Shown one piece after another: positions 17,727 through 52,660 of a DNA stretch of 56,799 nt. The notes below the pieces were generated by a model. It saw only the letters and a program-made list of their open reading frames with translations. It had not been told where the DNA came from and searched no databases. The translations under genes were made by a program, and so were the position numbers. Each line of letters begins with the position of its first letter. The first letter of the stretch is position 1. This DNA comes from Candidatus Enterousia sp. (GTDB lineage Bacteria > Pseudomonadota > Alphaproteobacteria > Rs-D84). The stretch covers positions 1 to 56,799 of the forward strand of contig JAZSAG010000006.1 in assembly GCA_045601765.1 (NCBI GenBank), in the 5' to 3' direction.

Positions 17727-17757
17727 AAAGCCGTCACAAGACGGCTTTTATTTTTTT
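17727..17757 (+). terminator. Terminator between rplT and pheS (probably partial or attenuating)
   Basis: AAAGCCGTC-acaa-GACGGCTTT hairpin followed by a T-run, 26 bp before the pheS ATG. Confidence 0.65.
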
Positions 17758-17782
17758 AAATAATCGTATAAGGTAAAAAATT

Positions 17783-18730
17783 ATGCAGGAACAAATAAAA
17801 AATATAAATACTTTGGAAGAATTACAGGCGTTGTACACGGCAACGTTTGGTAAAAACGGAACAATGACCGCACGTTTAAAAGAAATGAAAAATCTGGATA
17901 ATGATGCGCGCGCGGCATTAAATCTGGAAAATACCCAACTGCGTGAATTGTTCAAAACGCGTCAGACGGAAATTGAAAATGCGGTTTTAATGGCGGGACT
18001 GAAAAAACAAAAGTTAGATGTATCATTAAATCCGATGCCTGAAAATCGTGGAACATTGCATCCATTGACCCAGTCTTTATCGGAAATAGCATTTATATTG
18101 GAATCTTTTGGGTATAAAATGTACACCGGCCCAGAAATAGAAGATGACTGGCATAATTTTACCGCATTAAATACACCAATGCATCATCCCGCCCGTGATA
18201 TGCAGGACAGTTTCTTTTTAGAAAATGGAAATGTTTTACGTACCCAGACATCTGCGATACAGATTCGCGCAATGGAACGCGATGGTGTTCCAATTAAAAT
18301 GTTTGGTGTTGGTTCAACATATCGCAAAGAATGGGATGCAACACATGGCCCTATGTTTGGTCAAATAGAAGGTTTATATATCGATAAAAATGTGACAATG
18401 TCTGATTTATTGGCAGATGTTCGTGCGTTTTTATCTAAATTCTTTGGTATTGAAAATGTTGAATTACGTATCAGACCATCATTCTTTCCATTTACAGACC
18501 CCAGTATTGAAATTGATATGAAGTGGCGTAATGATAAATGGCTGGAATTGATGGGTGCGGGTATGGTTCATCCAAATGTTTTGCGTAATTGCGGAATAAA
18601 CCCAGATGAATACCAGGGCTTTGCATTTGGCTTTGGTTGGGACCGTCTGGCAATGTTAAAGTATAATTTGCCAGATTTACGTGATCTTTATAATAACGAT
18701 GTTCGTTGGTTAAAATCAGCAGGATTCTAA
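17783..18730 (+). CDS. pheS: Phenylalanine--tRNA ligase alpha subunit
   Basis: Class II core motifs (...HPARDMQDSFF..., ...FRKEWDATHGPMFGQIEGL...), followed by pheT. Confidence 0.95.
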   Translation: MQEQIKNINTLEELQALYTATFGKNGTMTARLKEMKNLDNDARAALNLENTQLRELFKTRQTEIENAVLMAGLKKQKLDVSLNPMPENRGTLHPLTQSLSEIAFILESFGYKMYTGPEIEDDWHNFTALNTPMHHPARDMQDSFFLENGNVLRTQTSAIQIRAMERDGVPIKMFGVGSTYRKEWDATHGPMFGQIEGLYIDKNVTMSDLLADVRAFLSKFFGIENVELRIRPSFFPFTDPSIEIDMKWRNDKWLELMGAGMVHPNVLRNCGINPDEYQGFAFGFGWDRLAMLKYNLPDLRDLYNNDVRWLKSAGF

Positions 18731-18745
18731 GACAGGGGAATAATT

Positions 18746-21049
18746 ATGAAATGGACATATGATTGGTTACAAGAATACTTAAACACAGATGCAGATGCGC
18801 AAACTATATCTGAAACACTGACCCGTATTGGATTAGAGGTAGAAGACCTGCAATCACCTATATCGCCAATTGCGGCGCGTATTGTTGAATGTGTGCCACA
18901 TGAAAACAGCGACCATTTACATGTATTGCGTGTTGATGATGGGTCCCCCACCCTGCGCCAGGTTGTATGCGGTGCACCAAATGCACGTGTGGGTTTAATA
19001 TCTGCGCTGGCGGTGCCGGGGTGCGTAATTGACGGTCATGAAATAACATCTGGTAAATTACGTGGTGTTGTATCAGACGGCATGATGTGTTCTGGCAAAG
19101 AATTGGGGATAAATGACGACCACAGTGGTATTATTGAATTGCCAGACGATACCGTTATCGGTTCACCTGTTATTGAAACGAAAACCGTGTTTGATGCGGG
19201 AATAACCCCGAACAGACCGGACTATTTATCTGTGCGCGGTATTGCACGCGACCTGTCTGCGGCGGGTCTTGGCGAATATATTGAACCAAAAGATTCAGAA
19301 TTAAAAACTGTATCTGGGTCGCGCAGTGTGCACCTGGAAACAGATAAATGCCCAACATATAAAATGGTTGAAATTCATGGTATAACCATTCGCCCCAGTT
19401 GTGAAAAGATTGCGTCACGTCTGCGTGCGATTGGTATAAATCCAAAAAAAGCACCTGTGGACGCAACAAATTATATTTGCTATGACATGGGCCAACCTAT
19501 GCATTGCTTTGACGCAGATGAAATAAATGGCGATATTATTGTGCGTATGGCACAAAAAGGTGAACAATTTACAGACTTGTTTGGTAATACACATGAACTG
19601 GTTGACACAGACATGGTTATCACAGACGCGTCTGGTATTTTGGCATTGGCCGGTGTAATTGGTGGCGCACGTGGTGCAACCACAGAAAATACCAAGAATA
19701 TAATTCTGGAAAGTGCATATTTTGACCCGGTATCTGTTCGTAAAACGTCCAAACGTCTGGGTATATCAACAGATGCATCTTACAGATACGAACGCGGGAT
19801 AAATCCGACTGTATCCGGTGATGCCGTAAAAATGGCCACAGATATTATTGTATCTGCATGTGGTGGCACGGTTGTTGGAACATATTGCGCCGGTGCTGAT
19901 TTGATTCCAGATATAAAAATAGAATATACACCTGAATACTTTACCAAGAAAACAGGTGCACAAATGGATGCAAAAACCCAACATGAAATTTTAACCAGAT
20001 TAGGATATACCATAACAGATATGGGTAATAAATGGATGGTTGTTCCACCTGTTTCACGTGTTGATGTTGAAATCCCTGAAACAATTGTCGCAGATTTACT
20101 GCGTATACACGGGTATGATAAAATATCTGTGAATCATAAACACACATATGGTGACGTTCGTCCACATGACTGTTCAGAAATGGATATAAAACATTTGTTG
20201 GCATCGCGTGGTTTAAATGAATGTCGTTCATTTGGTTTTGGTAATTTATCTGTTGAAAAAATGTTATCAGACAAACCGAACATAATGATTTCAAATCCGA
20301 TAACATCTGATTTTGACACAATGCGTAATGGTTTATTATATGGCCTGTTGTCTGTGGTGTCTGGTAATGAAAAACGTGGATACCCTGATGTCAGTGTTTT
20401 TGAATTAGGCACCGTGTTTGATGGTGATATGCCGGGCCAGCAACATACCCAGTTGTGTATCGTTCGCGCCGGTTGCAATTCACCAAAACATTGGACGCGT
20501 CGTAATCGTGAATTTGACATTTACGATATCAAGGCAGATATCATCGCATTGATGCAGGGCCAAAATTTCTTGGTTGATTGCGAAAATGCGCCAATGTGGG
20601 CACACCCATATCGTTATGGACGTATTATGCAGGGTAAAAAAACAATTGCAGAATTTGGTGAATTACATCCATCTGTTGCAAAAAAATTACGCATAAAAAC
20701 AAATGTTGTGATTGCGATTGTTGATGATATTAAAAATTTGCCATCAAAACGCGGCGGAAAACAGCCTGTATTATCTGAATTCCAGCCCATAACACGTGAT
20801 TTTGCGTTCATAGTAGATGTTGATATGCCGGCTGAAAAATTAACATCTGTTGCACGCAGTGTGGACAGTCGTATTTCAGGCGTGATTGTATTTGACGCGT
20901 TTGAATTACCAGATGGTAATAAATCAGTTGCATTTACAATTACAATTGATCCACGTGAAAACATGTCTGATAATGACTTGCAAACATTGCAAAAATCAGT
21001 CATAGAATCTGTTGAAAAGAAATGTAACGCAAAAATACGTGATAAATAA
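18746..21049 (+). CDS. pheT: Phenylalanine--tRNA ligase beta subunit
   Basis: 767 aa with an N-terminal tRNA-binding domain (VVCGAPNARVG), B3/4 and B5 regions and a C-terminal FDX-ACB-like domain. Confidence 0.95.
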   Translation: MKWTYDWLQEYLNTDADAQTISETLTRIGLEVEDLQSPISPIAARIVECVPHENSDHLHVLRVDDGSPTLRQVVCGAPNARVGLISALAVPGCVIDGHEITSGKLRGVVSDGMMCSGKELGINDDHSGIIELPDDTVIGSPVIETKTVFDAGITPNRPDYLSVRGIARDLSAAGLGEYIEPKDSELKTVSGSRSVHLETDKCPTYKMVEIHGITIRPSCEKIASRLRAIGINPKKAPVDATNYICYDMGQPMHCFDADEINGDIIVRMAQKGEQFTDLFGNTHELVDTDMVITDASGILALAGVIGGARGATTENTKNIILESAYFDPVSVRKTSKRLGISTDASYRYERGINPTVSGDAVKMATDIIVSACGGTVVGTYCAGADLIPDIKIEYTPEYFTKKTGAQMDAKTQHEILTRLGYTITDMGNKWMVVPPVSRVDVEIPETIVADLLRIHGYDKISVNHKHTYGDVRPHDCSEMDIKHLLASRGLNECRSFGFGNLSVEKMLSDKPNIMISNPITSDFDTMRNGLLYGLLSVVSGNEKRGYPDVSVFELGTVFDGDMPGQQHTQLCIVRAGCNSPKHWTRRNREFDIYDIKADIIALMQGQNFLVDCENAPMWAHPYRYGRIMQGKKTIAEFGELHPSVAKKLRIKTNVVIAIVDDIKNLPSKRGGKQPVLSEFQPITRDFAFIVDVDMPAEKLTSVARSVDSRISGVIVFDAFELPDGNKSVAFTITIDPRENMSDNDLQTLQKSVIESVEKKCNAKIRDK

Positions 21050-29933: not shown

Positions 29934-29990
29934 AATTTAGATAACGCAGTTGATTATACGGATGGCTAAACAAAAATCAAGAATATTTTA

Positions 29991-30017
29991 TTGAAAATAG
30001 ATTTTATCTGGTATAAA
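29991..30017 (+). promoter_or_regulatory. Candidate promoter of the aspS leader
   Basis: TTGAAA, 15 bp spacer, TATAAA with an extended -10 TGG. Confidence 0.45.
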
Positions 30018-30023
30018 ATCAGT

Positions 30024-30203
30024 CTCAGTTGCAAATATGATACGCGTTGATGTGACTGACAACCACGGAGTGTTCATATCGCATAAAAAGTTATAAATCA
30101 GGGTGGCACCGCGCAAATAACATATCTGCGCCCCTGAAATTTAACAAACAATGGGTGCCGAAAATCCAAATTTTTCTGCGCCTGAAAACAAAAAGGGACC
30201 AAA
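30024..30203 (+). promoter_or_regulatory. T-box riboswitch-like leader of aspS (antiterminator core 30099-30136)
   Basis: CAGGG-[UGGCACC]-GCGCA-loop-UGCGC-CCCUG, i.e. the conserved GGGUGGNACCGCG T-box with its 7-nt UGGNACC bulge. N=C matches discriminator G73 of tRNA-Asp. GAC codons at 30054 and 30058. Confidence 0.65.
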
Positions 30204-31958
30204 ATGTTATCTTTGAAATCAAAGTACAGAACACACACATGTGGTGAATTAAATCCCACAAATGTTGGCGAAACAGTAATCTTGTCTGGTTGGGTTCATC
30301 GTAAACGTGACCATGGGGCATTATTGTTCGTAGACCTGCGTGACAATTATGGTATCACCCAGGTTGTTTTTGATGGTGGTGATGAAAACTTGGAAAAAGT
30401 TCGCCCAGAATCAGTTATAAAAATCACAGGCACCGTTGTTGCGCGTGATGCATCTGCGGTTAATGAAAAAATACCAACTGGCGGAATTGAAATTCAGGCG
30501 ACTTCTTTTGAAGTTTTAACTAATTCAGACGTTTTGCCATTTCAGGTTTTTGGCGATGATGAATCTGTTGCCGAAGATTTAAGATTAAAACACAGATATA
30601 TTGACCTGCGTCGTGAATCATTGCATAAAAATATTTTAATGCGCAATCGCATTGTAAAGTTTATGCGTGATAAAATGTGGGATATGGGATTTTCAGAATT
30701 CCAAACACCTATCTTAACCGCGTCCAGTCCCGAAGGTGCACGTGACTTTATCGTCCCGTCTCGTAATCATCATGGTATGTTTTATGCCCTGCCCCAGGCA
30801 CCACAACAGTTTAAACAATTGTTACAGGTATCGGGCTTTGACAGATATTTCCAAATTGCACCATGTTTTCGTGACGAAGACCTGCGTGCCGACAGATTGT
30901 TAGAATTTTATCAACTGGACCTAGAAATGTCATTTGTTGATTTATTGGATATCCAGGCCGTTGGTGATGAATTGATGCCGGCTTTGATACGTGAATTTGT
31001 CCCAGATGCAATATTATCTGATGAAATACCGCATATTTCATTTGACGATGCGATGTTGAAATATGGGTCTGATAAACCAGATTTGCGTAATCCAATAATT
31101 ATCCACGATGTCACAGAAGTTTTCCGCGGGTCTGATTTTGGTATATTTGCCAACGCCATTGAAAATGGCAGTGTTGTTCGTGCCATACCTGCACCAAACA
31201 GTGCGGATAAACCACGTTCATGGTTTGATAAACTGGGCGACTTTGCCGTCAAAGAACTGGGGCTGGGTGGATTGGGATACATTGTATTCGCAGACGAACC
31301 CAAGGGCCCTGTTGCGAAAAAGTTAGATGCCGCGCGCATTGAAAAATTGCATGCGATTGCGGGTGATAACGCATCTTTGTTCTTTGTTTGTGACGCGCCG
31401 GAATCTGCGGCCAAGGCCGCGGGTAAAATCCGCAATAAATTGGGCGAAGATTTAGGTTTAATCAATCCACGCGAATTCCGTCTGTGTTGGATAGAAGACT
31501 TTCCAATGTATGAATTGAACGAAGAAACAGGTGCGATTGATTTTGGTCATAATCCATTCAGTTTACCCAAGGGCGAATTAGATGGTGATCCATTGAAAAT
31601 CAAAGCAAACCAGTTTGACATGGTGTTAAATGGCGCAGAAATTTGCAGTGGTGGCCTGCGTAATTATAACCCTGAAATCATGGTCAAGGCATTTGCAATC
31701 GCTGGATACGGCGAAGATGTTGTCAAGGCCAAGTTTGGTGGTATGTATACCGCGTTCCAATATGGCGCCCCACCACACGGTGGTTGTGCATTTGGTATTG
31801 ATAGATTGGTTCAAATTATCCTGGGCGAACAAAATCTGCGTGGTGTTGTTGCGTTCCCGACCAATCAACGTGGCCAAGACCTGATGTTGGGTGCACCGAC
31901 AAATGTCACAGAACAGCAATTACGTGATGTGCATATCCAGGTCAGAAAAAAGAACTAA
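30204..31958 (+). CDS. aspS: Aspartate--tRNA ligase
   Basis: 584 aa, bacterial type: OB-fold N-terminus, ...FYALPQAPQQFKQLL..., FRDEDLRADR, and a GAD insertion. Confidence 0.97.
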   Translation: MLSLKSKYRTHTCGELNPTNVGETVILSGWVHRKRDHGALLFVDLRDNYGITQVVFDGGDENLEKVRPESVIKITGTVVARDASAVNEKIPTGGIEIQATSFEVLTNSDVLPFQVFGDDESVAEDLRLKHRYIDLRRESLHKNILMRNRIVKFMRDKMWDMGFSEFQTPILTASSPEGARDFIVPSRNHHGMFYALPQAPQQFKQLLQVSGFDRYFQIAPCFRDEDLRADRLLEFYQLDLEMSFVDLLDIQAVGDELMPALIREFVPDAILSDEIPHISFDDAMLKYGSDKPDLRNPIIIHDVTEVFRGSDFGIFANAIENGSVVRAIPAPNSADKPRSWFDKLGDFAVKELGLGGLGYIVFADEPKGPVAKKLDAARIEKLHAIAGDNASLFFVCDAPESAAKAAGKIRNKLGEDLGLINPREFRLCWIEDFPMYELNEETGAIDFGHNPFSLPKGELDGDPLKIKANQFDMVLNGAEICSGGLRNYNPEIMVKAFAIAGYGEDVVKAKFGGMYTAFQYGAPPHGGCAFGIDRLVQIILGEQNLRGVVAFPTNQRGQDLMLGAPTNVTEQQLRDVHIQVRKKN

Positions 31959-31962
31959 AAAA

Positions 31963-31986
31963 AACCGGCATTTGCCGGTTTTTTTA
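31963..31986. terminator. Bidirectional terminator
   Basis: AACCGGCA-tt-TGCCGGTT hairpin followed by a T-run. Abuts the stop of the convergent small ORF. Confidence 0.7.
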
Positions 31987-32253
31987 TTTTTTATTTTGTA
32001 TCTGTGCGGACATAAGGTTTGTTAAATTTAAATCTTTGATACGCATATCGATTGCGTGTTGAACTTTTATTTGTTCTTCGAACAGCAACTGATATTGTGC
32101 GCCGTTTTCATTTGCAACATATGATACAGATTTTCCTTTTTGGTCGCGATTAACAATCGCCACACCTTGATTAGAATAGATATAATAATCGCCGAACGAT
32201 GGTTTTATATAGTGTGCATTTTGGATAATATTTAAAAGTTGTTGAATTGTCAT
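31984..32253 (-). CDS. Hypothetical small protein
   Basis: 89-aa ORF, 13 bp downstream of the preceding small ORF. No family recognised. Confidence 0.45.
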   Translation of the reverse strand: MTIQQLLNIIQNAHYIKPSFGDYYIYSNQGVAIVNRDQKGKSVSYVANENGAQYQLLFEEQIKVQHAIDMRIKDLNLTNLMSAQIQNKK

Positions 32254-32266
32254 TTTTTATCCTTTA

Positions 32267-32617
32267 TTACTTAATATTTTCTTTAAATTTATTCAAAAAA
32301 GACTGCATCTGTTGATCTTTTGAATCTTTAAGTACCTGTGAATCTCTGTTTTTGAACAGTTTATACATGTCTTCTGCAAATACTTTATCTGAAAAATCGT
32401 ATTTTACCTGTCCTTTGTTCATAGATATTTTCAGTGAATCCACCGCTTGTCCAAAACCAAGTGTCTTGAACGTAAAAGTTATTTTACCATCAATAACCCA
32501 TATTTGTTCATCTGTACCCTGTCCCAATGGGTTGACTTTATTAGACACTAAAACCTTTTTATCTTTAAGTTTTTGTTCTGTCAGGGTTAAAATGTCGTTT
32601 TGCATTATTATATTCAT
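32267..32617 (-). CDS. Hypothetical small protein
   Basis: 116-aa ORF with several possible ATG starts (M1/M5). No family recognised. Confidence 0.45.
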   Translation of the reverse strand: MNIIMQNDILTLTEQKLKDKKVLVSNKVNPLGQGTDEQIWVIDGKITFTFKTLGFGQAVDSLKISMNKGQVKYDFSDKVFAEDMYKLFKNRDSQVLKDSKDQQMQSFLNKFKENIK

Positions 32618-32723
32618 ACTTTGTATCCTTTATTCCTGGTAAGAAAGTACCATATAAAACACATTTGTCAAATTATTAATACTGTGCTTGATTTTTATGA
32701 TTTTACATTGTAAACTAACTGGC

Positions 32724-32756
32724 ATGAAACAGAAAGCAATAATTATCATTAAATAA
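32724..32756 (+). CDS. Candidate ileS leader peptide MKQKAIIIIK (four consecutive Ile codons)
   Basis: ATG AAA CAG AAA GCA ATA ATT ATC ATT AAA TAA read directly from the sequence. The stop lies 26 nt before the attenuator hairpin. No obvious SD, which lowers confidence. Confidence 0.5.
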   Translation: MKQKAIIIIK

Positions 32757-32782
32757 AAGGCGACTGCGCTTTGGCGGTGGCT

Positions 32783-32805
32783 GGGGCGCGTGGGCGCCTT
32801 TTTTT
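32783..32805 (+). terminator. Attenuator terminator 21 bp upstream of the ileS ATG
   Basis: GGCGC-gugg-GCGCC hairpin followed by seven U. Its 5' arm (32783-32790) can alternatively pair with UGCGCUUU (32765-32772). Confidence 0.65.
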
Positions 32806-32826
32806 AATGCAATATGGAGTTTTATT

Positions 32827-35800
32827 ATGACATACCCAAAGACAGATGCACGCCCAGATTTTCCTGCCCTGGAACAGGTTGTTTTGGCATCGTGGAATAA
32901 AAACGATACTTTTCACAAATCGTTACAGCAAACAAAACATGGCGAACCATTTTTATTTTACGATGGTCCTCCTTTTGCCAATGGTCTGCCCCATTGGGGA
33001 CATTTGGGTGTGACTGTTGTCAAAGATATGATTTCACGCTTTCAGACAATGAATGGTCGTTATGTAAGGCGCGAATTGGGCTGGGATTGTCATGGGTTGC
33101 CTGCGGAAAATTCTGTTGAAAAAAAACAGGGTAAACGTGCCAAAGATATTGTCGCAGATGATGGTATTGCCGCGTTTTGTGATATGTGCAGAACGGACGT
33201 TATGACATATACAAACGAATGGAACAGTTTTATATCACGTATGGGTCGTTGGGTTGATATTGGTGATAATTATGGTTACAGAACCATGGATAAAAATTAT
33301 ATGGAATCTATGCTGTGGACATTGAAATCATTGTATGAACGTGGCTTGTTGTACAAAGATTACAGTGTAAATCCATACGATTGGGTAAATGGCACCGTTG
33401 TTTCAAATTCCGAAGCGTCCCAAGACTATCGTGAAATTGTTGATGATGCGGTAACGGTTTGGTTTGAATTGGAAAATGGCGACCGGGCAATTGCATGGAC
33501 AACAACGCCATGGACATTACCTGCGAATTCTGCATTGGCGGTGAATCCAAATATGACGTATCTGCGCATGCAAGACACGGATGGCAGTGTTTATGTCATC
33601 GCATCCAGCAGACTGGCGGCATACGAAAAACAATTTGCCAATGCAACAGAAATAGGTCGTGTTAATGGTGCAGATTTGGTTGGTATGCATTATGTGCCAC
33701 TGTTCCCATATTATGCAGGTACATCTGAATTATTATTCCAGGTTATACCTGCGGATTATGTGTCTGACACTGACGGTACGGGTATTGTCCATATTGCGCC
33801 GGCATACGGTGCCGAAGATTTCTGGGCGGCGAAAAATATTGATGCGAAATTCCCAGTGTTATTGAATGTTGATACATACGGTAATTTTGATAACAGTGTG
33901 ACAGATTTTGCGGGCGAAAATATATTTGACGCCACACCAAAAATATTGGATTGGTTAAAGGCAAATGGACGCTTGGTTAAAAAAGAACAATATAAACACA
34001 GTTATCCATTTGGTGACCGCAGTAAACAAAAACTGATACAGCGTGCAACAGATTCTTGGTATATCGATGTTCCAAAAATCAAAGACAAATTACTGGCGAA
34101 TAATGCCTTGGTAAATTGGACATCTGCGGGCGAGCGTTTTCGCAGTTGGATTGAAAATGCGCGTCCTTGGTCAATATCACGTAATCGTTTCTGGGGTATG
34201 CCACTGCCAATTTGGGAACGTGACGGCGAATACAAGGTATTTGGTTCAATCGCAGAATTAGAAGAATTCTTTGGCGTGCCTGTTAATGACTTGCACCGTC
34301 CAACATTGGATAAATTATCGCGCGATGGTTGGACCCGTATCCCAGATGTATTAGATTGCTGGGTGGAAAGTGGTTCTATGCCATGGGCGTCATTACATTA
34401 TCCGTTTGAAAATGTAGACACATTTGAAAAATCTTTTCCTGCCGATTATATTATCGAAGGTCAAGATCAAACACGTGGTTGGTTTTATGCACTGATGGTA
34501 TTGGCAACAGCGTTATTTGATAAACCTGCGTTTAAAACGGTGTCTGCAAATGGTATGGTGGTTGATGAAAATAAAAAGAAGTTTTCAAAATCGCTAAGAA
34601 ACTTTGTCGACCCATCTGACCAAATAGAACAATATGGCGCAGATTCAATTCGCCTGTTTATATTGGGGTCTAATTTTATGAAGGCAGAACCGGTTCCTGT
34701 TGATAAAGAAGGTAAAGTATTCCTTGATTCTGCCAAGGTGATTTTAACCCCATTGTGGATGGCGTATCACTTCTTTACACTGTACGCGAATCCTGCAAAT
34801 ATCACCGCCCAGCATGTTGAAACATCTGACAATGCGCTGGATAAATATATATTGTCCGAATTAAATGTGTTAACAGATGTTGTCTGCACGTCTTTGAACG
34901 AATATAAACCAGACGTTGCCATCAAAGAATTTGTTCGATTCTTGGATATTTTGAACAACTGGTACATACGTCGCAGTCGTACACGTTTCTGGGACGAAGA
35001 ACAATGCGCGTTTGATGTGCTGTACACAGTGTTAACAACATTGTGTCGTGTGTTGGCACCATTTGCACCATTTGTATCAGATTATATTTACACAAATCTG
35101 ACGGGGGCAGAATCTGTGCATTTAACAACATTTCCTGTGGCGTCAGACATTGATACGAAAATCGTAGAAGATATGCGCCGCGTACAGTCAATTGTATCTG
35201 TTGGTAATCAATTGCGTGAGCAATATAAATTACGTAATCGTCTGCCGTTAAATTCGGTAACAATTGCCGGCGCCGACATGCCAGAATACGCCAATATCAT
35301 CAAAGAAGAATTAAATGTAAAACACGTAAAGTTTGATAACAATATATCAAATGTTGCGGACAGTTTTGTATATCTGATTACACCAAAAATAGGTGGCCGT
35401 TTGGGCGGTGCATTAAAAGACATAATACCATCTGTTAAACGTGGTGATTATGAAATTGTTGGTGATAAATTACATACTGCGGGATATATATTAAATTCTG
35501 ATGAATTTGAACAAAGATTAACTGTGCGTCGTGATGTCTCTGGTGCGGCGTTGCCTGATAATACTGCGGTTGTGGTACTAGATACAGACGTTAACGCAGA
35601 ATTGATTGCCGAAGGTCTGGCAAACGATGCGTTGCGCTTTATCCAAGATACCCGCAAGACAGCAGGCCTGGACGTTTCGGACAGAATAATTTTGACATAT
35701 TCTGCGGACCCTGCATTGGCGATTGCAATTGAACAGCATAAAAAGCGTATTATGCGTGATGCATTGATTGTTGAAATGCGCGCTGGGGACGGCCAATATA

Positions 35801-35850
35801 AAAAAGATATTCTGGGATATGACTTATCAATTGATGTGACCAAGGCATAA
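32827..35850 (+). CDS. ileS: Isoleucine--tRNA ligase, type 2 (eukaryote-like)
   Basis: 1007 aa with PPFANGLPHWGHL (HIGH region, type-2 style) and KKFSKS (KMSKS). Confidence 0.95.
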   Translation: MTYPKTDARPDFPALEQVVLASWNKNDTFHKSLQQTKHGEPFLFYDGPPFANGLPHWGHLGVTVVKDMISRFQTMNGRYVRRELGWDCHGLPAENSVEKKQGKRAKDIVADDGIAAFCDMCRTDVMTYTNEWNSFISRMGRWVDIGDNYGYRTMDKNYMESMLWTLKSLYERGLLYKDYSVNPYDWVNGTVVSNSEASQDYREIVDDAVTVWFELENGDRAIAWTTTPWTLPANSALAVNPNMTYLRMQDTDGSVYVIASSRLAAYEKQFANATEIGRVNGADLVGMHYVPLFPYYAGTSELLFQVIPADYVSDTDGTGIVHIAPAYGAEDFWAAKNIDAKFPVLLNVDTYGNFDNSVTDFAGENIFDATPKILDWLKANGRLVKKEQYKHSYPFGDRSKQKLIQRATDSWYIDVPKIKDKLLANNALVNWTSAGERFRSWIENARPWSISRNRFWGMPLPIWERDGEYKVFGSIAELEEFFGVPVNDLHRPTLDKLSRDGWTRIPDVLDCWVESGSMPWASLHYPFENVDTFEKSFPADYIIEGQDQTRGWFYALMVLATALFDKPAFKTVSANGMVVDENKKKFSKSLRNFVDPSDQIEQYGADSIRLFILGSNFMKAEPVPVDKEGKVFLDSAKVILTPLWMAYHFFTLYANPANITAQHVETSDNALDKYILSELNVLTDVVCTSLNEYKPDVAIKEFVRFLDILNNWYIRRSRTRFWDEEQCAFDVLYTVLTTLCRVLAPFAPFVSDYIYTNLTGAESVHLTTFPVASDIDTKIVEDMRRVQSIVSVGNQLREQYKLRNRLPLNSVTIAGADMPEYANIIKEELNVKHVKFDNNISNVADSFVYLITPKIGGRLGGALKDIIPSVKRGDYEIVGDKLHTAGYILNSDEFEQRLTVRRDVSGAALPDNTAVVVLDTDVNAELIAEGLANDALRFIQDTRKTAGLDVSDRIILTYSADPALAIAIEQHKKRIMRDALIVEMRAGDGQYKKDILGYDLSIDVTKA

Positions 35851-41687: not shown

Positions 41688-41763
41688 TGGTGCCGGTAAT
41701 AGGACTTGAACCTACGACCCCCTCATTACGAATGAGATGCTCTACCAACTGAGCTATACCGGC
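41688..41763 (-). tRNA. tRNA-Thr (CGT)
   Basis: Canonical cloverleaf on the minus strand: GCCGGTA...anticodon loop TTCGTAA...GTAGG-TTCAAGT-CCTAT...TACCGGCACCA. Confidence 0.92.
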
Positions 41764-45850: not shown

Positions 45851-45942
45851 TTACACTTTTTCAAGGGAATAAATGTATAAACATTACACTTTTTCAATGG
45901 AATAAATGTAATTTGTATACGGTTTTTCGATGGAACAAGTGT
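45851..45942 (+). repeat. Three tandem repeats with a 33-bp period in the divergent ATPase/hsdM promoter region
   Basis: ttacactttttcaagggaataaatgta (45851-45877), ttacactttttcaatggaataaatgta (45884-45910), and a degenerate third unit (45916-45942). Confidence 0.8.
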
Positions 45943-46040
45943 TGAAATATCGAATTTTTTGCATAAAAAGCGCATTTATTTTTTGTTATTGTGCAATTTT
46001 TTTCTTTTTACTAATATCAGGAATAAATGGAGATGATGTT

Positions 46041-47762
46041 ATGAGTTTGAGTGCCAACGTACAGGAAAAAGCAAATCTGATTTGGGCGATTGCAGACAAA
46101 CTGGTCGGCCCGTTTGAACCACATGAATACGGCGAAGTTATATTACCATTTGTGGTAATAAAGCGTTTTGATTGCATCCTTGCCGACACCAAGGACAAGG
46201 TTTTAGAAGAACACAAGGCCATTCAAGGATTGGACAACAAAGAACTGATAGACGTTAGGCTGAAAAAGGCCAGCGGGGTTCAATTTTATAACATCAGCCC
46301 ATTTACATTTGAAAAGCTGTTGGATGCGCCAAACAATATCGCCAGCAATTTCAAGGCATATCTGGCTGGCTTTTCAGAAAACGTTCAAAACATCATTGAA
46401 AAATTTGACTTTGATAAGCAACTTGCACGACTGGTTGATAAAGACTTGTTGTACATCATTGTCCAAGAATTTTGCTCGACAAAGGCAGACCTGCACCCAG
46501 ATAAGATAAGCAATCTGGAAATGGGGTATATCTTTGAAGAAATTATCAGACGTTTTTCAGAAGCCCATAATGGCGCGGCCGGTCAACACTATACCCCGCG
46601 CGAGGTTATTCGCTTGATGGTAAATATCTTGTTTGACAGCGATGATGAAATCTTGACTGATACAACCGTAAAAACCATGTATGACCCGACTGTGGGAACG
46701 GGTGGGATGTTGTCTGTGGCATCTGAATATCTGAAAGAAATGAATCCTGATGCCAAGTTGTTATGTTATGGCCAAGAAATCAATGATAAGACGTTTGCAA
46801 TTTGCAAGGCAGACATGCTTATCAAGGGGGAAAACGCAGACAATATCAAGAACGGCAACACACTGGCGGATGATAAATTTGAAGACAGCAAGTTTTCGTA
46901 CATTCTGTCCAATCCACCATTTGGTATTGAATGGAAGAAAGAAAAATCCGCCGTTGAGAACGAGGCAAAATTAGGGTTTGCGGGTCGTTTCGGTGCAGGT
47001 CTGCCACCGGTCAGCGACAGTCAGATGTTGTTCCTGCAAATCTGTATCAACAAATTGAATCCGGATAAAGGTAAGGCATGTGTTATTCAAAATGGGTCGC
47101 CGTTATTCAGTGGCGATGCCGGCAGTGGCCCATCAGAAATACGCAGATATCTGTTGGAACACGATTATTTGGATGCGATTATCGGACTGCCCAACAACAT
47201 ATTTTACAACACCGGAATCGCAACATATATCTGGGTACTGTCAACCAGAAAGCCCGCGCAGCGCAAAGGAAAGGTAATTCTTATCAACGCAAGCGAGATG
47301 TATGAAAAACGTAGAAAGGCATTGGGTGATAAAAGACACGACATTCCAGAAAGTGCGATTGCAGAAATAACACGTGTATACAGCGAATTCAAAGAAACAG
47401 AAATCAGCAAGATATTCAATACAGATGAATTCGGATATCGCAAGGTTGTTGTTGAACGTCCATTGCGTGATGAAAACGGTGATGTTGTTTTGAAGAAAGG
47501 AAAACCAGTTGCCGACCCAAAGTTACGCGACACAGAAAACATCCCATTGACCGAAGATATTCAGACGTATTTTGAGCGCGAGGTTTTGCCATTCGCACCC
47601 GATGCATGGATTGATGAATCCAAGACAAAAATCGGATACGAAATACCATTTACAAGATATTTCTATAAATACACCCCGCCACGCAAATCAGAAGACATCA
47701 TGGCGGAAATAATGACATTGGAATCTGAATTGGATGCACTGTTGAAAGGGGTATCCAAATGA
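46041..47762 (+). CDS. hsdM: Type I restriction-modification system, DNA methyltransferase subunit
   Basis: N-terminal HsdM_N (ANLIWAIADKL), AdoMet motif DPTVGTGGML, catalytic NPPF. Start at 46041 after GGAG; the track ORF N-extension is rejected. Confidence 0.92.
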   Translation: MSLSANVQEKANLIWAIADKLVGPFEPHEYGEVILPFVVIKRFDCILADTKDKVLEEHKAIQGLDNKELIDVRLKKASGVQFYNISPFTFEKLLDAPNNIASNFKAYLAGFSENVQNIIEKFDFDKQLARLVDKDLLYIIVQEFCSTKADLHPDKISNLEMGYIFEEIIRRFSEAHNGAAGQHYTPREVIRLMVNILFDSDDEILTDTTVKTMYDPTVGTGGMLSVASEYLKEMNPDAKLLCYGQEINDKTFAICKADMLIKGENADNIKNGNTLADDKFEDSKFSYILSNPPFGIEWKKEKSAVENEAKLGFAGRFGAGLPPVSDSQMLFLQICINKLNPDKGKACVIQNGSPLFSGDAGSGPSEIRRYLLEHDYLDAIIGLPNNIFYNTGIATYIWVLSTRKPAQRKGKVILINASEMYEKRRKALGDKRHDIPESAIAEITRVYSEFKETEISKIFNTDEFGYRKVVVERPLRDENGDVVLKKGKPVADPKLRDTENIPLTEDIQTYFEREVLPFAPDAWIDESKTKIGYEIPFTRYFYKYTPPRKSEDIMAEIMTLESELDALLKGVSK

Positions 47763-49240
47763 AAGGAATAAATCCGATAGCTGCACAAATAACAAATTCC
47801 CCAGCGGCTAAACTTGCCGCAAAATTAGCAAGCAGTCCAATGGCAAAAATGGCTACCAATCCGATGGTAAAGGCTGCAACACAAATGGCGAACAACCCAA
47901 TGGCACAAGCAGCCACACGATTATCACGCATTGCCCAACCGTATGCCGAAGCGCTTCAAAAGCTTAGCCATATTGAGTGGATTGGCAAAATCCCTAAGTG
48001 TTGGGATATAGTAAAAACCAAACGTATTTTTCAAAACAATAAACAAGTTGCAGGCAAACATGCCGGTGATTATGAGCGCCTTGCTCTTACTATGAATGGG
48101 GTAATAAAACGAGATAAAGATGATGCTGAGGGGCTACAACCCGAAAGCTTTGATGGCTATCAAGTGCTAGGACAAAATCAACTGGTGTTCAAACTGATTG
48201 ATTTGGAAAATGTAAAAACAAGCCGAGTAGGATTATCTCCATTTACCGGCATAGTATCCCCCGCATATATCGTTTTGAAAAACACCCAAGTAGACAATCG
48301 TTTTTTCTATTACTATTACATGAATATGTATTACCAAGAAATATTCAATTACATGGGCGGAGAGGGAGTTAGAAGTGCATTGAATGCGAAAGATTTGCTT
48401 GAAGTACCTTTGCCCAACATATCCACGTCCGAACAACAAGCGATTGCGGATTATTTGGATGGGGAATGTGCGCGAATTGATGGCATTGTTACAACCCAGC
48501 GACAGATAATTGAACGCCTGAAAGAATACAAGAAATCATTTATTACCGAGGCGGTTACACGTGGCCTGAACCCCGATGCGCCAATGAAAGACAGCGGCAT
48601 CGAATGGATAGGCAAGATTCCAAAGAATTGGGAAATATCAAAAGTATCTTTCTTTTTTGATATACAGTTGGGCAAGATGGTACAACCAAATAAAGAAAAT
48701 GAATTTGATATAGAGCGCCCTTATTTATGTGCAGTCAACTTCGGTAACAATACATTCAAACTGGATACAATAAAGACAATGTGGTTTTCTCCAGCTGAGA
48801 TAGAATTATACCGAGTTTCTGTTGGGGATTTGTTTGTGGTAGAGGGCGGAGATATCGCTAGCTCCGACTTTGTTACACACCCTTTAGAAGACTTCGGTTT
48901 TCAAAACGCCTTACATAGAGTAAGAGCTCGTGCCAGTGCAGATACTAGATTTTTGAGATATCTTTTGATTGTTGCAAAAAATATGGGTTATATCGACTTG
49001 ATTTGCAATAAAGCAACTATTGCACATTTTTCTAAGGATAAATTTCAAAACATGCCTTTTTTAGTCGCACCACTATCAGAACAACAAGCCATTGCGGATT
49101 ATTTGGACAAGAAGAGTGCAGAGGTTGACACTATAATTGAAAAGCGTGAGCGGATGATAGAACTGATGACGGAATATAAAAAATCACTGATATACGAATG
49201 TGTTACCGGTAAAAAGGAAATAGTTGATGTTGTGGAATGA
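47759..49240 (+). CDS. hsdS: Type I R-M specificity subunit with an unusual ~70-aa Ala-rich repeat N-terminal extension
   Basis: Two TRDs, each preceded by IEWIGKIPK(C/N)W. Two conserved helices (EQQAIADYLD...). ATGA overlap with hsdM. Confidence 0.9.
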   Translation: MKGINPIAAQITNSPAAKLAAKLASSPMAKMATNPMVKAATQMANNPMAQAATRLSRIAQPYAEALQKLSHIEWIGKIPKCWDIVKTKRIFQNNKQVAGKHAGDYERLALTMNGVIKRDKDDAEGLQPESFDGYQVLGQNQLVFKLIDLENVKTSRVGLSPFTGIVSPAYIVLKNTQVDNRFFYYYYMNMYYQEIFNYMGGEGVRSALNAKDLLEVPLPNISTSEQQAIADYLDGECARIDGIVTTQRQIIERLKEYKKSFITEAVTRGLNPDAPMKDSGIEWIGKIPKNWEISKVSFFFDIQLGKMVQPNKENEFDIERPYLCAVNFGNNTFKLDTIKTMWFSPAEIELYRVSVGDLFVVEGGDIASSDFVTHPLEDFGFQNALHRVRARASADTRFLRYLLIVAKNMGYIDLICNKATIAHFSKDKFQNMPFLVAPLSEQQAIADYLDKKSAEVDTIIEKRERMIELMTEYKKSLIYECVTGKKEIVDVVE

Positions 49241-49658
49241 TTTCTTTTCTTCACAGTTGTTTGGGGTTATTATTGGGGCACTGATGACCGGTGGTTTTAC
49301 GTGGCTGTTGGATTGCCTGCGATACAAACGTGAACGCAAGGCACACATTCAACAAAAACGCGAAGAATTATATATTCAAGCGTGTCATGTGTTGATGGAA
49401 CATGATAAATACTGTCGCGACCACGAATGGCCCAAAAAGTGCAAAGAAATGTTCAATGAATTACAGGGCAAAATGCTGATATATGCATCAAAGAAGATTT
49501 ATAAACAATATTATGCATTAGATACTGAAATTTGTTCTGTTTATGCTAAAATGAAATCCAAGAAACAACGTGAAGAAATGTCAAACAAGATAGCCGACAA
49601 GGTAGAGGCGTTTGCATCAGAAATGCGTAAAGAACTGGGTATAAAAGGAGTGTTATAA
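49227..49658 (+). CDS. Hypothetical single-pass membrane protein embedded between hsdS and hsdR
   Basis: AGGAAA RBS and ATG 49227. TM helix LFGVIIGALMTGGFTWLL then a helical, Lys/Glu-rich domain. Overlaps hsdS by 14 nt, and its TAA overlaps the hsdR ATG (TAATG). Confidence 0.65.
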   Translation: MLWNDFFSSQLFGVIIGALMTGGFTWLLDCLRYKRERKAHIQQKREELYIQACHVLMEHDKYCRDHEWPKKCKEMFNELQGKMLIYASKKIYKQYYALDTEICSVYAKMKSKKQREEMSNKIADKVEAFASEMRKELGIKGVL

Positions 49659-52600: not shown

Positions 52601-52660
52601 CTGGACTTCCTGAAAGATATGTTGGTACAGGTTGCTTATAAAAGTTTGGGGAATAAATAA
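49658..52660 (+). CDS. hsdR: Type I restriction enzyme endonuclease/translocase subunit
   Basis: 1000 aa with an N-terminal nuclease region, helicase motif I HSAGSGKS and motif II IIADEGH, and a C-terminal helical domain. Confidence 0.92.
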   Translation: MAGDNLKEINLEAAIEAYLTSDMGGYAKGNPDKFDRKLALDKDTLIEFVKNTQPKAWERYTQTYPTNPEEVFIDRVHTVIKQAPKGLLQILRTGFKDRGIEFKLCYFKPDNSMNEADVELYNKNILHCTRQLHYSVSNENSIDIVLFLNGIPVVSMELKNQFTGQDTSNAIDQYKFDRNSKDTIFEFKNRVFVHFAVDLYEAYMTTKLDGVKTFFLPFNQGSNGAGNIGGKGNPANPDGFTTSYLWEKVLCKDMLMEIIQKYLHIQITRNKKTKAIEKETMIFPRYHQLDVVTKLVDDVKQNGAGKSYLIQHSAGSGKSNSIAWLAYHLASLHNDQNEKIFNSVIVLTDRRVLDSQLQDTITQFDHTSGLVEPIKEGSKQLKNAINEKKAIIISTIQKFPIIYKELVSENRSFAIIADEGHSSQSGKAAASVIQGLGDTEEETLNKFAEQEAQTEEKQDEEMDTLENTLKSQGQHDNLSFFAFTATPKAKTLNRFGTRQPDGSYKAFHVYSMQQAIEEGFILDVLQNYTTYKTYYKLIKKTVDDPQLESAKGAKEITKFQTLHPTNISQKTTIMLNHFVNVTAAKINGRAKAMVVTPSRLHAVRYLKEFKKQIEKNQIKGVDVLVAFSGELKDAHETYTETMLNVDKTGAHIKETQLPEYFKNDFNILIVADKYQTGFDEPLLHTMFVDKKLNDVKAVQTLSRLNRTTKGKTDTFVLDFVNEREDIKNSFQKYFQQTILEKEIDPNELYKLQSVIMEAQICYPNEIEQFADIYYSGKETEKDLGKLSSILKPALDRYNVKTPEDQDKFRKALGNFIKMYDFIIQIVRLMDKDLQKFFVYGKFLHKCLRKGKSERVDLSNKLVLEYIKQAKQEEGSIVLEDKVGKAKPVVGGTGSSTKKTEPLSAIIEKFNERFGTSFSGEDKVLEQVIDDMSKDPYLVISAQNKDKTAFNTQFDTKFTDVMMDRHTKNDEFFKELLSDKDKLDFLKDMLVQVAYKSLGNK

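What the first reader, a model, noticed from the sequence alone, without database searches (positions are those of the whole stretch)
32724..32805. Ile-codon-run leader peptide and overlapping antiterminator/terminator upstream of ileS
Seen in sequence: a 10-codon ORF, MKQKAIIIIK, has four consecutive Ile codons (ATA ATT ATC ATT, 32739-32750). It ends 26 nt before a GC-rich hairpin (GGCGC-gugg-GCGCC) with a 7-U tail, which lies 21 bp before the ileS ATG. The terminator 5' arm GGGGCGCG (32783-32790) can instead pair with UGCGCUUU (32765-32772). A ribosome reaching the leader stop codon would cover this upstream arm, but a ribosome stalled on the Ile codons would not. This is the logic of classical ribosome-mediated attenuation (established for pheST, ilv and his operons). 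I am not aware of it being the standard description for ileS. Caveat: there is no clear Shine-Dalgarno in front of the leader ATG.
Basis: partly seen in the sequence, partly recalled or inferred. Interest (0 to 1): 0.65.

Follow-up and report, generated by a model that had tools for sequence, protein, structure and literature searches.

The report
Isoleucine-sensing leader attenuator before ileS
A 10-codon mini-gene with four isoleucine codons, followed by switchable RNA hairpins and a terminator, sits in front of the isoleucyl-tRNA synthetase gene in every examined member of a group of tiny-genome gut bacteria; it most likely raises synthetase production when charged isoleucine tRNA runs low, a classic mechanism not previously described for this gene in the papers I could search.

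Summary
It is strongly backed by comparison, but not by statistics on this sequence alone. The window comes from a Candidatus Enterousia-like alphaproteobacterium (order Rs-D84, genomes under 1 Mb, no amino-acid synthesis). All 84 related ileS loci, and all 44 of 45 further metagenome contigs whose upstream sequence is held, carry the mini-ORF M-x(3-4)-I-I-I-I-x-stop. The start codon, reading frame and length are kept. The last three Ile codons are invariant as Ile, and their third bases change only to other Ile codons.

Downstream lie four conserved helices, all with compensatory changes:
- Hairpin A (1:2) and the terminator T (3:4) are compatible with each other.
- The antiterminator AT (2:3) excludes both.

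The conserved promoter ends 7-9 nt before the ATG. This predicts a leaderless mRNA and explains the missing Shine-Dalgarno.

Best reading: classical ribosome-mediated attenuation that senses Ile-tRNA charging. No Rfam family matches. The only related report found is an uncharacterised "ileS leader CDS" in Caulobacter. No transcript data could be obtained.

The parts
32688..32716 (+). Promoter: -35 TTGATT (32688-93), 17-nt spacer, -10 TAAACT (32711-16). The -10 ends 7 nt before the leader ATG.
   Evidence: Read. About 60 related loci keep TTGcaT or TTGATT, a 17/18-nt spacer and TAnnnT. The -10 ends 7-9 nt before the start codon in most of them. It scores below the 9-of-12 threshold of the consensus scan. 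Its function is inferred.
32724..32756 (+). Leader ORF, 10 sense codons plus TAA: MKQKAIIIIK*. It has no Shine-Dalgarno and is predicted to be leaderless.
   Evidence: The ORF is present in 84 of 84 loci: 81 with 10 codons and 3 with 9, so all length changes keep the frame. It is also present in 44 of 45 metagenome contigs.
32739..32750 (+). Four consecutive Ile control codons: ATA ATT ATC ATT.
   Evidence: Positions -4, -3 and -2 before the stop are Ile in 84 of 84 loci. The first position is Ile in 81 of 84 (Val twice, Thr once). There are 17 third-base variants at the three invariant codons, all to T, C or A, and no first- or second-base changes.
32759..32782 (+). Hairpin A (1:2, anti-antiterminator and possible pause hairpin): 32759-61 and 32763-67 pair with 32774-78 and 32780-82.
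   Evidence: -13.0 kcal/mol in the window. It is predicted in all 60 distinct haplotypes, mean -11.3 kcal/mol. It is 80% paired on the MAFFT alignment, against 24-50% when the partner is slid. True partners score better than shuffled partners, p=5e-5.
32765..32790 (+). Antiterminator AT (2:3): 32765-75 pairs with 32780-90, loop GGUG.
   Evidence: -16.0 kcal/mol. 93% of cells are paired. It is the RNAalifold consensus. G-C changes to A-U in 3 loci, and G-C changes to G-U where the terminator arm changed.
32783..32805 (+). Intrinsic terminator T (3:4): 32783-89 pairs with 32794-32800, loop GUGG, U-run 32799-32805.
   Evidence: terminator scan. -11.9 kcal/mol. 92% of cells are paired, with C-G changed to U-A in 6 rows. 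Present in all loci.
32747..32809 (+). Long-range helix P1 (1:4): 32747-53 and 32755-62 pair with 32795-32809. It encloses AT. Its 5' strand holds the last Ile codon, the Lys codon, the stop codon and the spacer GGCG. Its 3' strand holds the terminator 3' arm, the U-run and AAUG.
   Evidence: It is the minimum-energy fold of the leader: P1+AT is -30.8 kcal/mol. True partners score -9.1 against -7.6 kcal/mol for shuffled partners, z=-8.2. Compensations seen: ATT-AAA with UUUAAU, ATA-AAA with UUUUAU, ATC-AAA with UUUGAU, ATT-GAA with UUCAAU, and TGG..CCA against CGG..CCG.
32816..35850 (+). ileS: Shine-Dalgarno GGAG at 32816-19, coding sequence 32827-35850 (1007 aa, type-2 'eukaryote-like' IleRS).
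   Evidence: TIGR00392, 755 bits; the MupA/MupB-type models match far below their cut-offs. ileS lies downstream of the element in 39 of 39 metagenome contigs that hold enough sequence.

Best explanation
This is a ribosome-mediated (leader-peptide) transcription attenuator. It makes ileS transcription depend on the supply of charged tRNA-Ile.

Proposed steps:
1. Transcription starts at or within about 3 nt of the leader AUG. A ribosome translates the 10-codon ORF while RNA polymerase is still on the leader.
2. If no ribosome covers region 1 (32755-67), hairpin A forms, the terminator T then forms, and transcription ends at the U-run. This happens when the leader is untranslated, or when the ribosome has finished and left. 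Alternatively, region 1 pairs with the terminator 3' arm (proximal P1) around the antiterminator. That fold also places a G-C stem directly against the U-run.
3. If Ile-tRNA is scarce, the ribosome lingers on the last Ile codons and covers region 1. Neither A nor P1 can form. The antiterminator sequesters GGGGCGC, the terminator arm GCGCC has no partner, and polymerase reads into ileS.
4. In read-through RNA, the complete P1+AT stem (63 nt) folds at the 5' end.

Shown here: all the sequence elements, their conservation, the mutual exclusivity of the helices, and the covariation.

Inferred: translation of the ORF, leaderless initiation, termination, the direction of the response, and which ribosome positions give read-through.
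For: - The ORF is conserved in 84 of 84 genomic loci, whose ileS DNA differs by 23% on average (up to 43%). It is also present in 44 of 45 metagenome contigs.
- The Ile block differs by 4%. Leader codons 2-5 differ by 23.5%, the T loop by 41% and the spacer by 57%.
- Third-base variants of the Ile codons are never G.
- Pair counts are AT 93%, T 92% and A 80%, against 24-78% for slid controls.
- Changes in the strand shared by AT and T are compensated in both partners.
- For all four helices, true partners pair better than shuffled partners, p<=2e-4.
- RNAalifold gives the AT core without guidance.
- Energies fit a kinetic switch: A+T -24.9, AT -16.0 and P1gc+AT -22.7 kcal/mol.
- The stop codon lies 8-11 nt before the antiterminator arm in every locus.
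- Promoter spacing predicts a leaderless mRNA.
- A covariance model finds one copy in the window (98.9 bits). It also finds three loci that were not used to build it (75-89 bits).
- The 24-nt core lies upstream of ileS in 39 of 39 contigs.
- The hosts lack amino-acid synthesis (PMC12306168), so Ile-tRNA charging is a meaningful signal for them.
Against: - There is no experimental or transcript evidence. The public RNA runs gave only sparse contigs inside ileS.
- In every masked state that I folded, the fold containing the terminator is the thermodynamic optimum. Read-through must therefore be kinetic.
- The geometry is not textbook. The Ile codons end 8 nt before hairpin A. With a ribosome edge about 12-13 nt 3' of the A-site, only stalls at the third or fourth Ile codon reach region 1. 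A ribosome at the stop codon covers only 2-3 nt of the antiterminator arm.
- Covariation is limited because the stems are nearly invariant, and related sequences inflate the shuffle tests.
- Synonymous sites are not neutral: ATC is 2% of leader Ile codons against 23% genome-wide. Part of the nucleotide conservation is therefore RNA-level.
- No Shine-Dalgarno is present, and four loci start with GTG.
Confidence: 0.8

Rival explanations
1. This is an RNA-only or protein-binding leader. The hairpins switch in response to a bound ligand, an uncharged tRNA (T-box-like) or IleRS itself (as in E. coli thrS). The AUAAUUAUUAUU stretch is conserved as RNA and is not translated.
For: Synonymous sites in the Ile block are strongly biased. 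The last Ile codon and the next codon covary with bases after the U-run, so RNA-level selection is real. No Shine-Dalgarno is present. A T-box-like element exists upstream of aspS in the same window.
Against: No T-box or other Rfam family matches the leader. The start codon, the frame, the 10-codon length and the stop codon are kept, while codons 2-5 vary freely and never acquire an in-frame stop. All length changes are multiples of 3. The first three Ile codons lie outside every conserved helix, yet they are the most conserved bases. The loops (GGUG, RUGG) vary or bear no likeness to an anticodon loop.
Confidence: 0.07
2. This is a translated leader with different logic. It reports general translation capacity, or ribosome release and termination efficiency, rather than Ile specifically. 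Alternatively the polarity is reversed, so that a ribosome at the stop codon, not one on the Ile codons, favours the antiterminator.
For: A ribosome at the stop codon masks all of region 1 but only 2-3 nt of the antiterminator arm (geometry; folds). Stalls at the first two Ile codons leave hairpin A free.
Against: An invariant run of four Ile codons in front of the Ile-tRNA synthetase gene is hard to explain unless the signal is Ile-specific. Reversed polarity would lower IleRS when charging falls. The residue after the run is free to vary (K, R, E, N), which argues against a peptide-specific arrest.
Confidence: 0.07
3. This is an ordinary terminator, for the upstream tRNA-Thr gene or for insulation, that happens to follow a chance mini-ORF in AT-rich DNA.
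For: Runs of ATH codons are common in this window (11 matches). In 22 of 84 loci, tRNA-Thr(CGU) lies 10-20 nt upstream on the same strand, so the hairpin would also end tRNA transcripts.
Against: The window and about 60 other loci have no adjacent tRNA, yet they keep the ORF and all the helices. The ORF is conserved in 128 sequences. A plain terminator needs no conserved overlapping alternative helices.
Confidence: 0.03
4. The main product is a trans-acting small RNA or a small peptide, as with rnTrpL and peTrpL of Sinorhizobium. Control of ileS is secondary.
For: The terminated RNA would be a stable structured molecule of about 80 nt. Attenuator-derived sRNAs and active leader peptides are known in Alphaproteobacteria (PMC6614838, PMC7298713; listed).
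Against: The peptide varies at every position except the Ile run (38 distinct peptides among the 84 loci; more). The element is always directly upstream of ileS. No target could be sought here.
Confidence: 0.03

Closest known systems
E. coli pheST attenuator (pheM leader peptide)
   Same: An aminoacyl-tRNA synthetase operon is controlled by a short leader ORF rich in the cognate codon, followed by alternative hairpins and an intrinsic terminator. (Established knowledge; also mentioned for gamma-proteobacteria in PMC1262725.)
   Different: It uses a different amino acid and is not homologous. pheM is 14 codons long and has a ribosome-binding site. Here the ORF has 10 codons, appears leaderless, and its last codons pair with the U-run region (P1).
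trp, his and ilv leader-peptide attenuators of proteobacteria
   Same: They share the four-segment logic (1:2 and 3:4 against 2:3), control codons cognate to the pathway, and a terminator-containing fold that is thermodynamically favoured, so that the outcome is decided kinetically.
   Different: Those elements control biosynthetic operons. Their control codons lie inside segment 1. Here the codons lie just upstream of hairpin A and overlap only P1. The host has no Ile biosynthesis. No Rfam leader family matches.
Caulobacter crescentus 'ileS leader CDS' CCNA_03934 (Schrader et al. 2014, PMC4117421)
   Same: It is a small translated ORF upstream of ileS in an alphaproteobacterium, found by ribosome profiling.
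   Different: The paper uses it only as a negative control and describes no sequence, Ile codons, terminator or mechanism. Its sequence was not retrievable here. By its length (2910 nt), Caulobacter ileS looks like type 1 (my inference). Homology was not tested.
T-box leaders of ileS in Firmicutes and Actinobacteria
   Same: They have the same regulatory goal: ileS expression responds to tRNA-Ile charging through alternative leader structures (PMC1262725).
   Different: T-boxes bind uncharged tRNA directly and need no translation. The T-box sequence and Stem I are absent here.

Membership tests
Classical ribosome-mediated (leader-peptide) transcription attenuator | A short ORF upstream of the regulated gene with a run of codons for the cognate amino acid | tested here: met
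   MKQKAIIIIK* at 32724-32756. Conserved in 84 of 84 loci and 44 of 45 contigs.
Classical ribosome-mediated (leader-peptide) transcription attenuator | An intrinsic terminator (G+C-rich hairpin plus U-run) between the leader ORF and the structural gene | tested here: met
   32783-32805. -11.9 kcal/mol. 92% paired across relatives. Actual termination was not tested.
Classical ribosome-mediated (leader-peptide) transcription attenuator | An antiterminator helix (2:3) mutually exclusive with the terminator | tested here: met
   32765-75 with 32780-90 shares 32783-89 with T. 93% paired. RNAalifold consensus. Changes in the shared strand are compensated in both partners.
Classical ribosome-mediated (leader-peptide) transcription attenuator | A 1:2 helix that blocks the antiterminator unless a stalled ribosome masks segment 1 | tested here: inconclusive
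   Hairpin A exists in all 60 haplotypes (80% paired). However, the Ile codons end 8 nt before its 5' arm, so only stalls at the last one or two Ile codons would reach it. P1, whose 5' arm overlaps the last Ile codon, may share this role.
Classical ribosome-mediated (leader-peptide) transcription attenuator | The leader ORF is translated, and read-through rises when the cognate charged tRNA is limiting | not testable with these tools
   No ribosome profiling or usable RNA-seq was available. Support is indirect only: the ORF is conserved and the promoter spacing predicts a leaderless mRNA.
T-box riboswitch (RF00230) | The T-box sequence AGGGUGGNACCGCG with an antiterminator bulge, and Stem I with a specifier loop | tested here: not met
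   No T-box match in 32600-32860 even at E<=10. In contrast, a sub-threshold match lies upstream of aspS.
Any curated Rfam leader or cis-regulatory family | A score at or above the family's gathering threshold | tested here: not met
   Only tRNAs pass in the window. The best leader-region hits are rnk_leader at 23.8 bits (threshold 50) and STnc40 at 21.7 bits (threshold 45), both carried by the terminator.
Caulobacter ileS leader CDS (CCNA_03934) | Sequence or positional homology to that ORF | not tested
   Its sequence is not in the held text or supplements.

The most novel reading that the evidence does not exclude
The element is a minimal, leaderless, roughly 82-nt attenuator with two different terminating folds.
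- A+T forms when the leader is not translated.
- A stem closed by proximal P1 around the antiterminator forms after the ribosome has finished and left.

Only a ribosome parked on the last Ile codons, which masks the strand shared by A and P1, then allows read-through. The full P1+AT stem includes bases after the U-run, so it can form only in read-through RNA. There it becomes a 63-nt 5' hairpin of the ileS mRNA, acting as a stabiliser or insulator.

This would be a variant of attenuation in which the control codons and the stop codon pair with the terminator's own 3' arm and U-run. It is kept throughout a genome-reduced, amino-acid-auxotrophic symbiont lineage as its sensor of isoleucine supplied from outside the cell.
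Probability: 0.25. Interest if true: 0.65.

Novelty: new member of a known kind. Interest (0 to 1): 0.5.

Why it matters
- It adds ileS to the short list of aminoacyl-tRNA synthetase genes controlled by leader-peptide attenuation. pheST is the textbook case. Control of ileS has otherwise been described through T-boxes in Gram-positive bacteria.
- Bacteria with genomes under 1 Mb and no amino-acid synthesis still keep a dedicated sensor of Ile-tRNA charging. That says something about what limits them in the gut.
- The element is very small, has no Shine-Dalgarno, and carries an unexpected covarying helix between the end of the leader ORF and the U-run region. This makes it a compact test case for how ribosome position, ribosome release and co-transcriptional folding decide termination.
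- It also gives annotators a covariance model (R1) for a leader that no Rfam family currently covers.

Tried and rejected
**Database matches**
- Rfam at gathering and at permissive thresholds found no family. The weak rnk_leader and STnc40 hits are carried by the terminator.
- A T-box reading was rejected.

**Alternative functions considered**
- An IleRS operator like that of thrS was considered. There is no anticodon-like loop and the loops vary.
- Translational reinitiation from the leader onto ileS was considered. It was rejected because 70-89 nt and a terminator separate the two.
- A bidirectional-terminator role for P1 was considered. No convergent gene is present.
- A terminator serving only tRNA-Thr was rejected, because about 60 loci, including the window, lack an adjacent tRNA.

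**Transcript evidence**
- Three run searches and two read layouts gave only DNA metagenomes or sparse metatranscriptome contigs within ileS. None informs on the leader's 3' ends.

**Wider distribution**
- IleS relatives at 50% identity or less lack the element. These are actinobacterial, Rickettsiales-like, and another low-GC gut alphaproteobacterium.

**Literature**
- Seven searches found no description of an Ile-codon attenuator for ileS.
- The sequence of Caulobacter CCNA_03934 could not be retrieved.
- Lopatovskaya et al. 2010, a survey of attenuation of aminoacyl-tRNA synthetase operons, is not held. Prior prediction there cannot be excluded.

**Technical dead ends**
- The first protein search timed out.
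- The first structure string was off by one column.
- A fixed-register test of distal P1 gave p=0.64 because the register shifts between clades. A register-free test replaced it.
- I looked for a pause-site consensus after hairpin A and found nothing convincing, so I make no claim.

Full report
**1. What is in the sequence**

- ATG 32724, then AAA CAG AAA GCA ATA ATT ATC ATT AAA TAA, which gives MKQKAIIIIK*, with the stop at 32754-56.
- A G+C-rich hairpin at 32783-32800, with a U-run reaching 32805. The terminator scan lists it with 7 pairs, 5 of them G-C, and a 4-nt loop.
- GGAG at 32816-19.
- The ileS ATG at 32827. The 1007-aa product matches TIGR00392 at 755 bits. It is the long type-2 form: the MupA/MupB-type models match far below their cut-offs.

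The gene upstream (32267-32617) lies on the other strand. The 210-nt gap is therefore a divergent promoter region, and the hairpin does not terminate an upstream gene on the + strand.

On this one sequence the case is weak. Four consecutive ATH codons occur 11 times in the window, against 3.6 expected. The fold of 32700-32830 has a z-score of only -2.5.

**2. Source organism and relatives**

A scan of one genome per species with the first 400 residues of IleS returned 435 relatives. The best 80 (77-92% identity) are all MAGs named Candidatus Enterousia, or unnamed Alphaproteobacteria, from ruminant, horse, mouse and other guts.

A protein search shows that identity then drops from about 69% to 50% or less. 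Three contigs at 70-72% identity were fetched as well.

According to PMC12306168, Enterousia (order Rs-D84) has genomes under 1 Mb. It lacks pathways for amino-acid synthesis and is thought to live as an obligate symbiont or parasite.

**3. The mini-ORF is conserved as an ORF**

All 84 loci have it: 81 with 10 sense codons and 3 with 9.

Counting back from the stop codon:
- The stop is TAA in 83 loci and TGA in 1.
- The preceding codon is AAA, AGA or CGA.
- The next three codons are Ile in 84 of 84 loci.
- The next codon is Ile in 81 loci, Val in 2 and Thr in 1.
- The start codon is ATG in the 10-codon ORFs of 77 loci and GTG in 4.

Codons 2-5 vary: there are 38 distinct peptides, and none has an in-frame stop. 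At the three invariant Ile codons there are 17 third-base variants, all to T, C or A, and no first- or second-base change.

Mean pairwise difference by segment:

| Segment | Difference |
|---|---|
| Ile run + next codon + stop | 4% |
| Region 2-3 core | 14% |
| Terminator 3' arm + U-run | 14% |
| Leader codons 2-5 | 23.5% |
| First 1200 nt of ileS | 23% (maximum 43%) |
| Terminator loop | 41% |
| Spacer | 57% |

An exact search for the 24-nt core in metagenome contigs gave 45 more contigs.
- All 39 with enough downstream sequence have ileS there.
- 44 carry the ORF, and the other is cut at its end.
- In nine contigs the residue after the Ile run is Glu or Asn instead of Lys or Arg. That residue is therefore not conserved as an amino acid.

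Four IleS relatives at 50% identity or less have no such ORF. These are two actinobacterial loci, one Rickettsiales-like locus and another low-GC gut alphaproteobacterium. They also give no match to the covariance model.

**4. Four helices, in window coordinates**

- **A (1:2):** 32759-61 and 32763-67 pair with 32774-78 and 32780-82. Energy -13.0 kcal/mol.
- **AT (2:3):** 32765-75 pairs with 32780-90. Energy -16.0 kcal/mol.
- **T (3:4):** 32783-89 pairs with 32794-32800, followed by the U-run. Energy -11.9 kcal/mol.
- **P1 (1:4):** 32747-53 and 32755-62 pair with 32795-32809.

A and T can coexist (-24.9 kcal/mol). AT excludes both. P1 encloses AT: the full P1+AT stem is -30.8 kcal/mol, and AT with only the four G-C pairs of P1 is -22.7 kcal/mol.

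On the MAFFT alignment A1, the share of cells forming standard pairs is:
- 93% for AT.
- 92% for T.
- 80% for A.
- 24-78% when the 3' partner is slid by 1-3 columns.

RNAalifold, given no structure, returns the AT core. Hairpin A is the predicted fold of the post-stop segment in all 60 distinct haplotypes, with a mean of -11.3 kcal/mol. It holds although its 5' arm is the most variable stretch of the leader.

Compensation is limited, because the stems are nearly invariant, but it is telling.
- In L049, L054 and L056, GGGGCGC became GGGGTGC. Both partners changed to match: GCGC to GCAC in the AT arm, and GCGCC to GCACC in the T arm.
- In seven loci, GGGCGC became GGGCGT and the T arm became ACGCC. 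The AT pair became G-U.

For all four helices, the true partner gives a better duplex energy than partners taken from other loci. The permutation p-value is 2e-4 or lower over distinct haplotypes. Relatedness inflates such tests, so I treat them as support and not as proof.

**5. P1 is the unexpected part**

The base before the spacer GG covaries with the base that interrupts the U-run. TGG goes with CCCA, CGG or CTGG goes with CCCG, and AAGG goes with CCTT. These combinations recur in several separate ileS clades, including close pairs such as L012 and L032.

Further out, the last Ile codon plus the next codon is matched by the end of the U-run and the bases after it:

| Leader hexamer | Partner after the U-run | Sequences |
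|---|---|---|
| AUUAAA | UUUAAU | 77 |
| AUAAAA | UUUUAU | 8 (at least 3 clades hold an AUA codon with this partner) |
| AUUGAA | UUCAAU | 8 |
| AUCAAA | UUUGAU | 1 |
| AUUAGA | UUUAAU, through G-U | 10 |

In 107 of 127 sequences all six positions pair, with p of about 5e-4 over 36 haplotypes.

The outermost partners lie after the U-run. The full P1 can therefore form only in read-through RNA. Its G-C part (GGCG with CGCC) is available at the moment termination is decided.

**6. Start of the transcript**

About 60 loci, the window included, keep a promoter of the form TTGcaT or TTGATT, a 17/18-nt spacer and TAnnnT. In the window this is 32688-93 and 32711-16. The -10 ends 7-9 nt before the start codon in most of them. 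This places the predicted start site at or within about 3 nt of the AUG. It explains why none of the sequences has a Shine-Dalgarno, although ileS itself has GGAG.

In 22 loci, mostly the more divergent ones, tRNA-Thr(CGU) ends 10-20 nt before the ORF on the same strand. The leader is then probably co-transcribed with the tRNA. Leaderless initiation is an inference.

**7. Mechanism**

The anatomy is that of a classical attenuator, with one extra helix.

Inferred sequence of events:
- **No ribosome on region 1 (32755-67).** Hairpin A forms first and blocks AT. T then forms and transcription stops.
- **Ribosome already past and released, with AT already formed.** Proximal P1 can close a stem against the U-run, giving a second terminating fold.
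- **Ribosome held on the last Ile codons.** It masks region 1, so neither A nor P1 forms. AT holds GGGGCGC, GCGCC stays unpaired, and polymerase continues into ileS.

The open points are real.
- Take a ribosome edge about 12-13 nt 3' of the first base of the A-site codon. Stalls at the first two Ile codons then do not reach region 1.
- A ribosome at the stop codon reaches only 32765-67.
- Folds containing the terminator are the thermodynamic optimum in every masked state I folded. Read-through has to be a kinetic outcome, as it is in known attenuators.
- Ile codon choice in the leader is ATA at the first position in 94% of loci and ATT at the others in 87-99%. ATC is 2% of leader Ile codons, against 23% genome-wide. 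P1 pairing explains this only in part.

**8. Comparison with what is known**

- No Rfam family matches.
- The element works like the pheST (pheM), trp, his and ilv attenuators, but it is not homologous to them.
- For ileS, the searchable literature describes T-boxes (PMC1262725).
- Caulobacter has an "ileS leader CDS", CCNA_03934, seen by ribosome profiling and used only as a negative control (PMC4117421).
- Methylorubrum has a 150-nt 5' UTR before ileS (PMC9320726).
- A 2010 survey of attenuation at aminoacyl-tRNA synthetase operons (Lopatovskaya et al.) is not held. Earlier prediction elsewhere cannot be excluded.

I therefore file it as a new member of a known kind.

**9. What is missing**

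No experiment and no usable transcript data were available. A covariance model built from the alignment (R1) finds a single copy in the window (98.9 bits). It also finds the three loci that were not used to build it (75-89 bits). It can be used for wider scans.

Noticed in passing
window 29967-30138 (+), upstream of aspS (30204-31958): A sub-threshold Rfam T-box match: 33.5 bits against a gathering score of 93, E=5.8e-6. It has a canonical AGGGUGGCACCGCG at 30101-30114, followed by a possible GCGCA...UGCGC hairpin. T-boxes are unusual in Alphaproteobacteria. If real, this lineage uses two different charging sensors for two synthetase genes.
   Followed up: partly
L004, L019, L026, L061-L063, L066, L068, L071-L079, L083 and others, about 10-20 nt upstream of the leader ORF; window 41688-41763 (-): In 22 of 84 related loci, tRNA-Thr(CGU) lies directly upstream of the leader on the same strand. 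L063 has the UGU anticodon instead. Other loci have the tRNA further upstream, with the promoter in between. In the window the tRNA-Thr(CGT) gene lies 9 kb away on the other strand, so a rearrangement separated them.
   Followed up: partly
window 32739-32750 and the same codons in L001-L083: Ile codon choice in the leader is far from genomic usage. The first codon is ATA in 94% of loci and codons 2-4 are ATT in 87-99%. ATC is 2% of leader Ile codons. In 14 genes of the window, usage is ATT 48%, ATC 23% and ATA 29%. P1 pairing explains this only in part. ATA and ATT are read by different tRNA-Ile species.
   Followed up: partly
window 31958-31985: A 12-pair A/T-flanked hairpin that scores as a terminator on both strands. 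It sits between the end of aspS and the convergent ORF 31984-32253.
   Followed up: no
window 17729-17760, upstream of pheS-pheT (17783-21049): A terminator-like hairpin (AAAAGCCGUC-ACAA-GACGGCUUUU plus Us) lies directly before pheS, with no Phe-rich mini-ORF. The pheST control known from E. coli is therefore not mirrored here.
   Followed up: no
window 3815-6244 (-) and 45930-52660 (+): A VirB4-family type IV secretion ATPase and a complete type I restriction-modification set (hsdM, hsdS, hsdR) are present in this reduced genome.
   Followed up: no
window 31984-32617 (-): The two small ORFs that diverge from the ileS leader promoter (89 and 116 aa) match no NCBIfam family.
   Followed up: no
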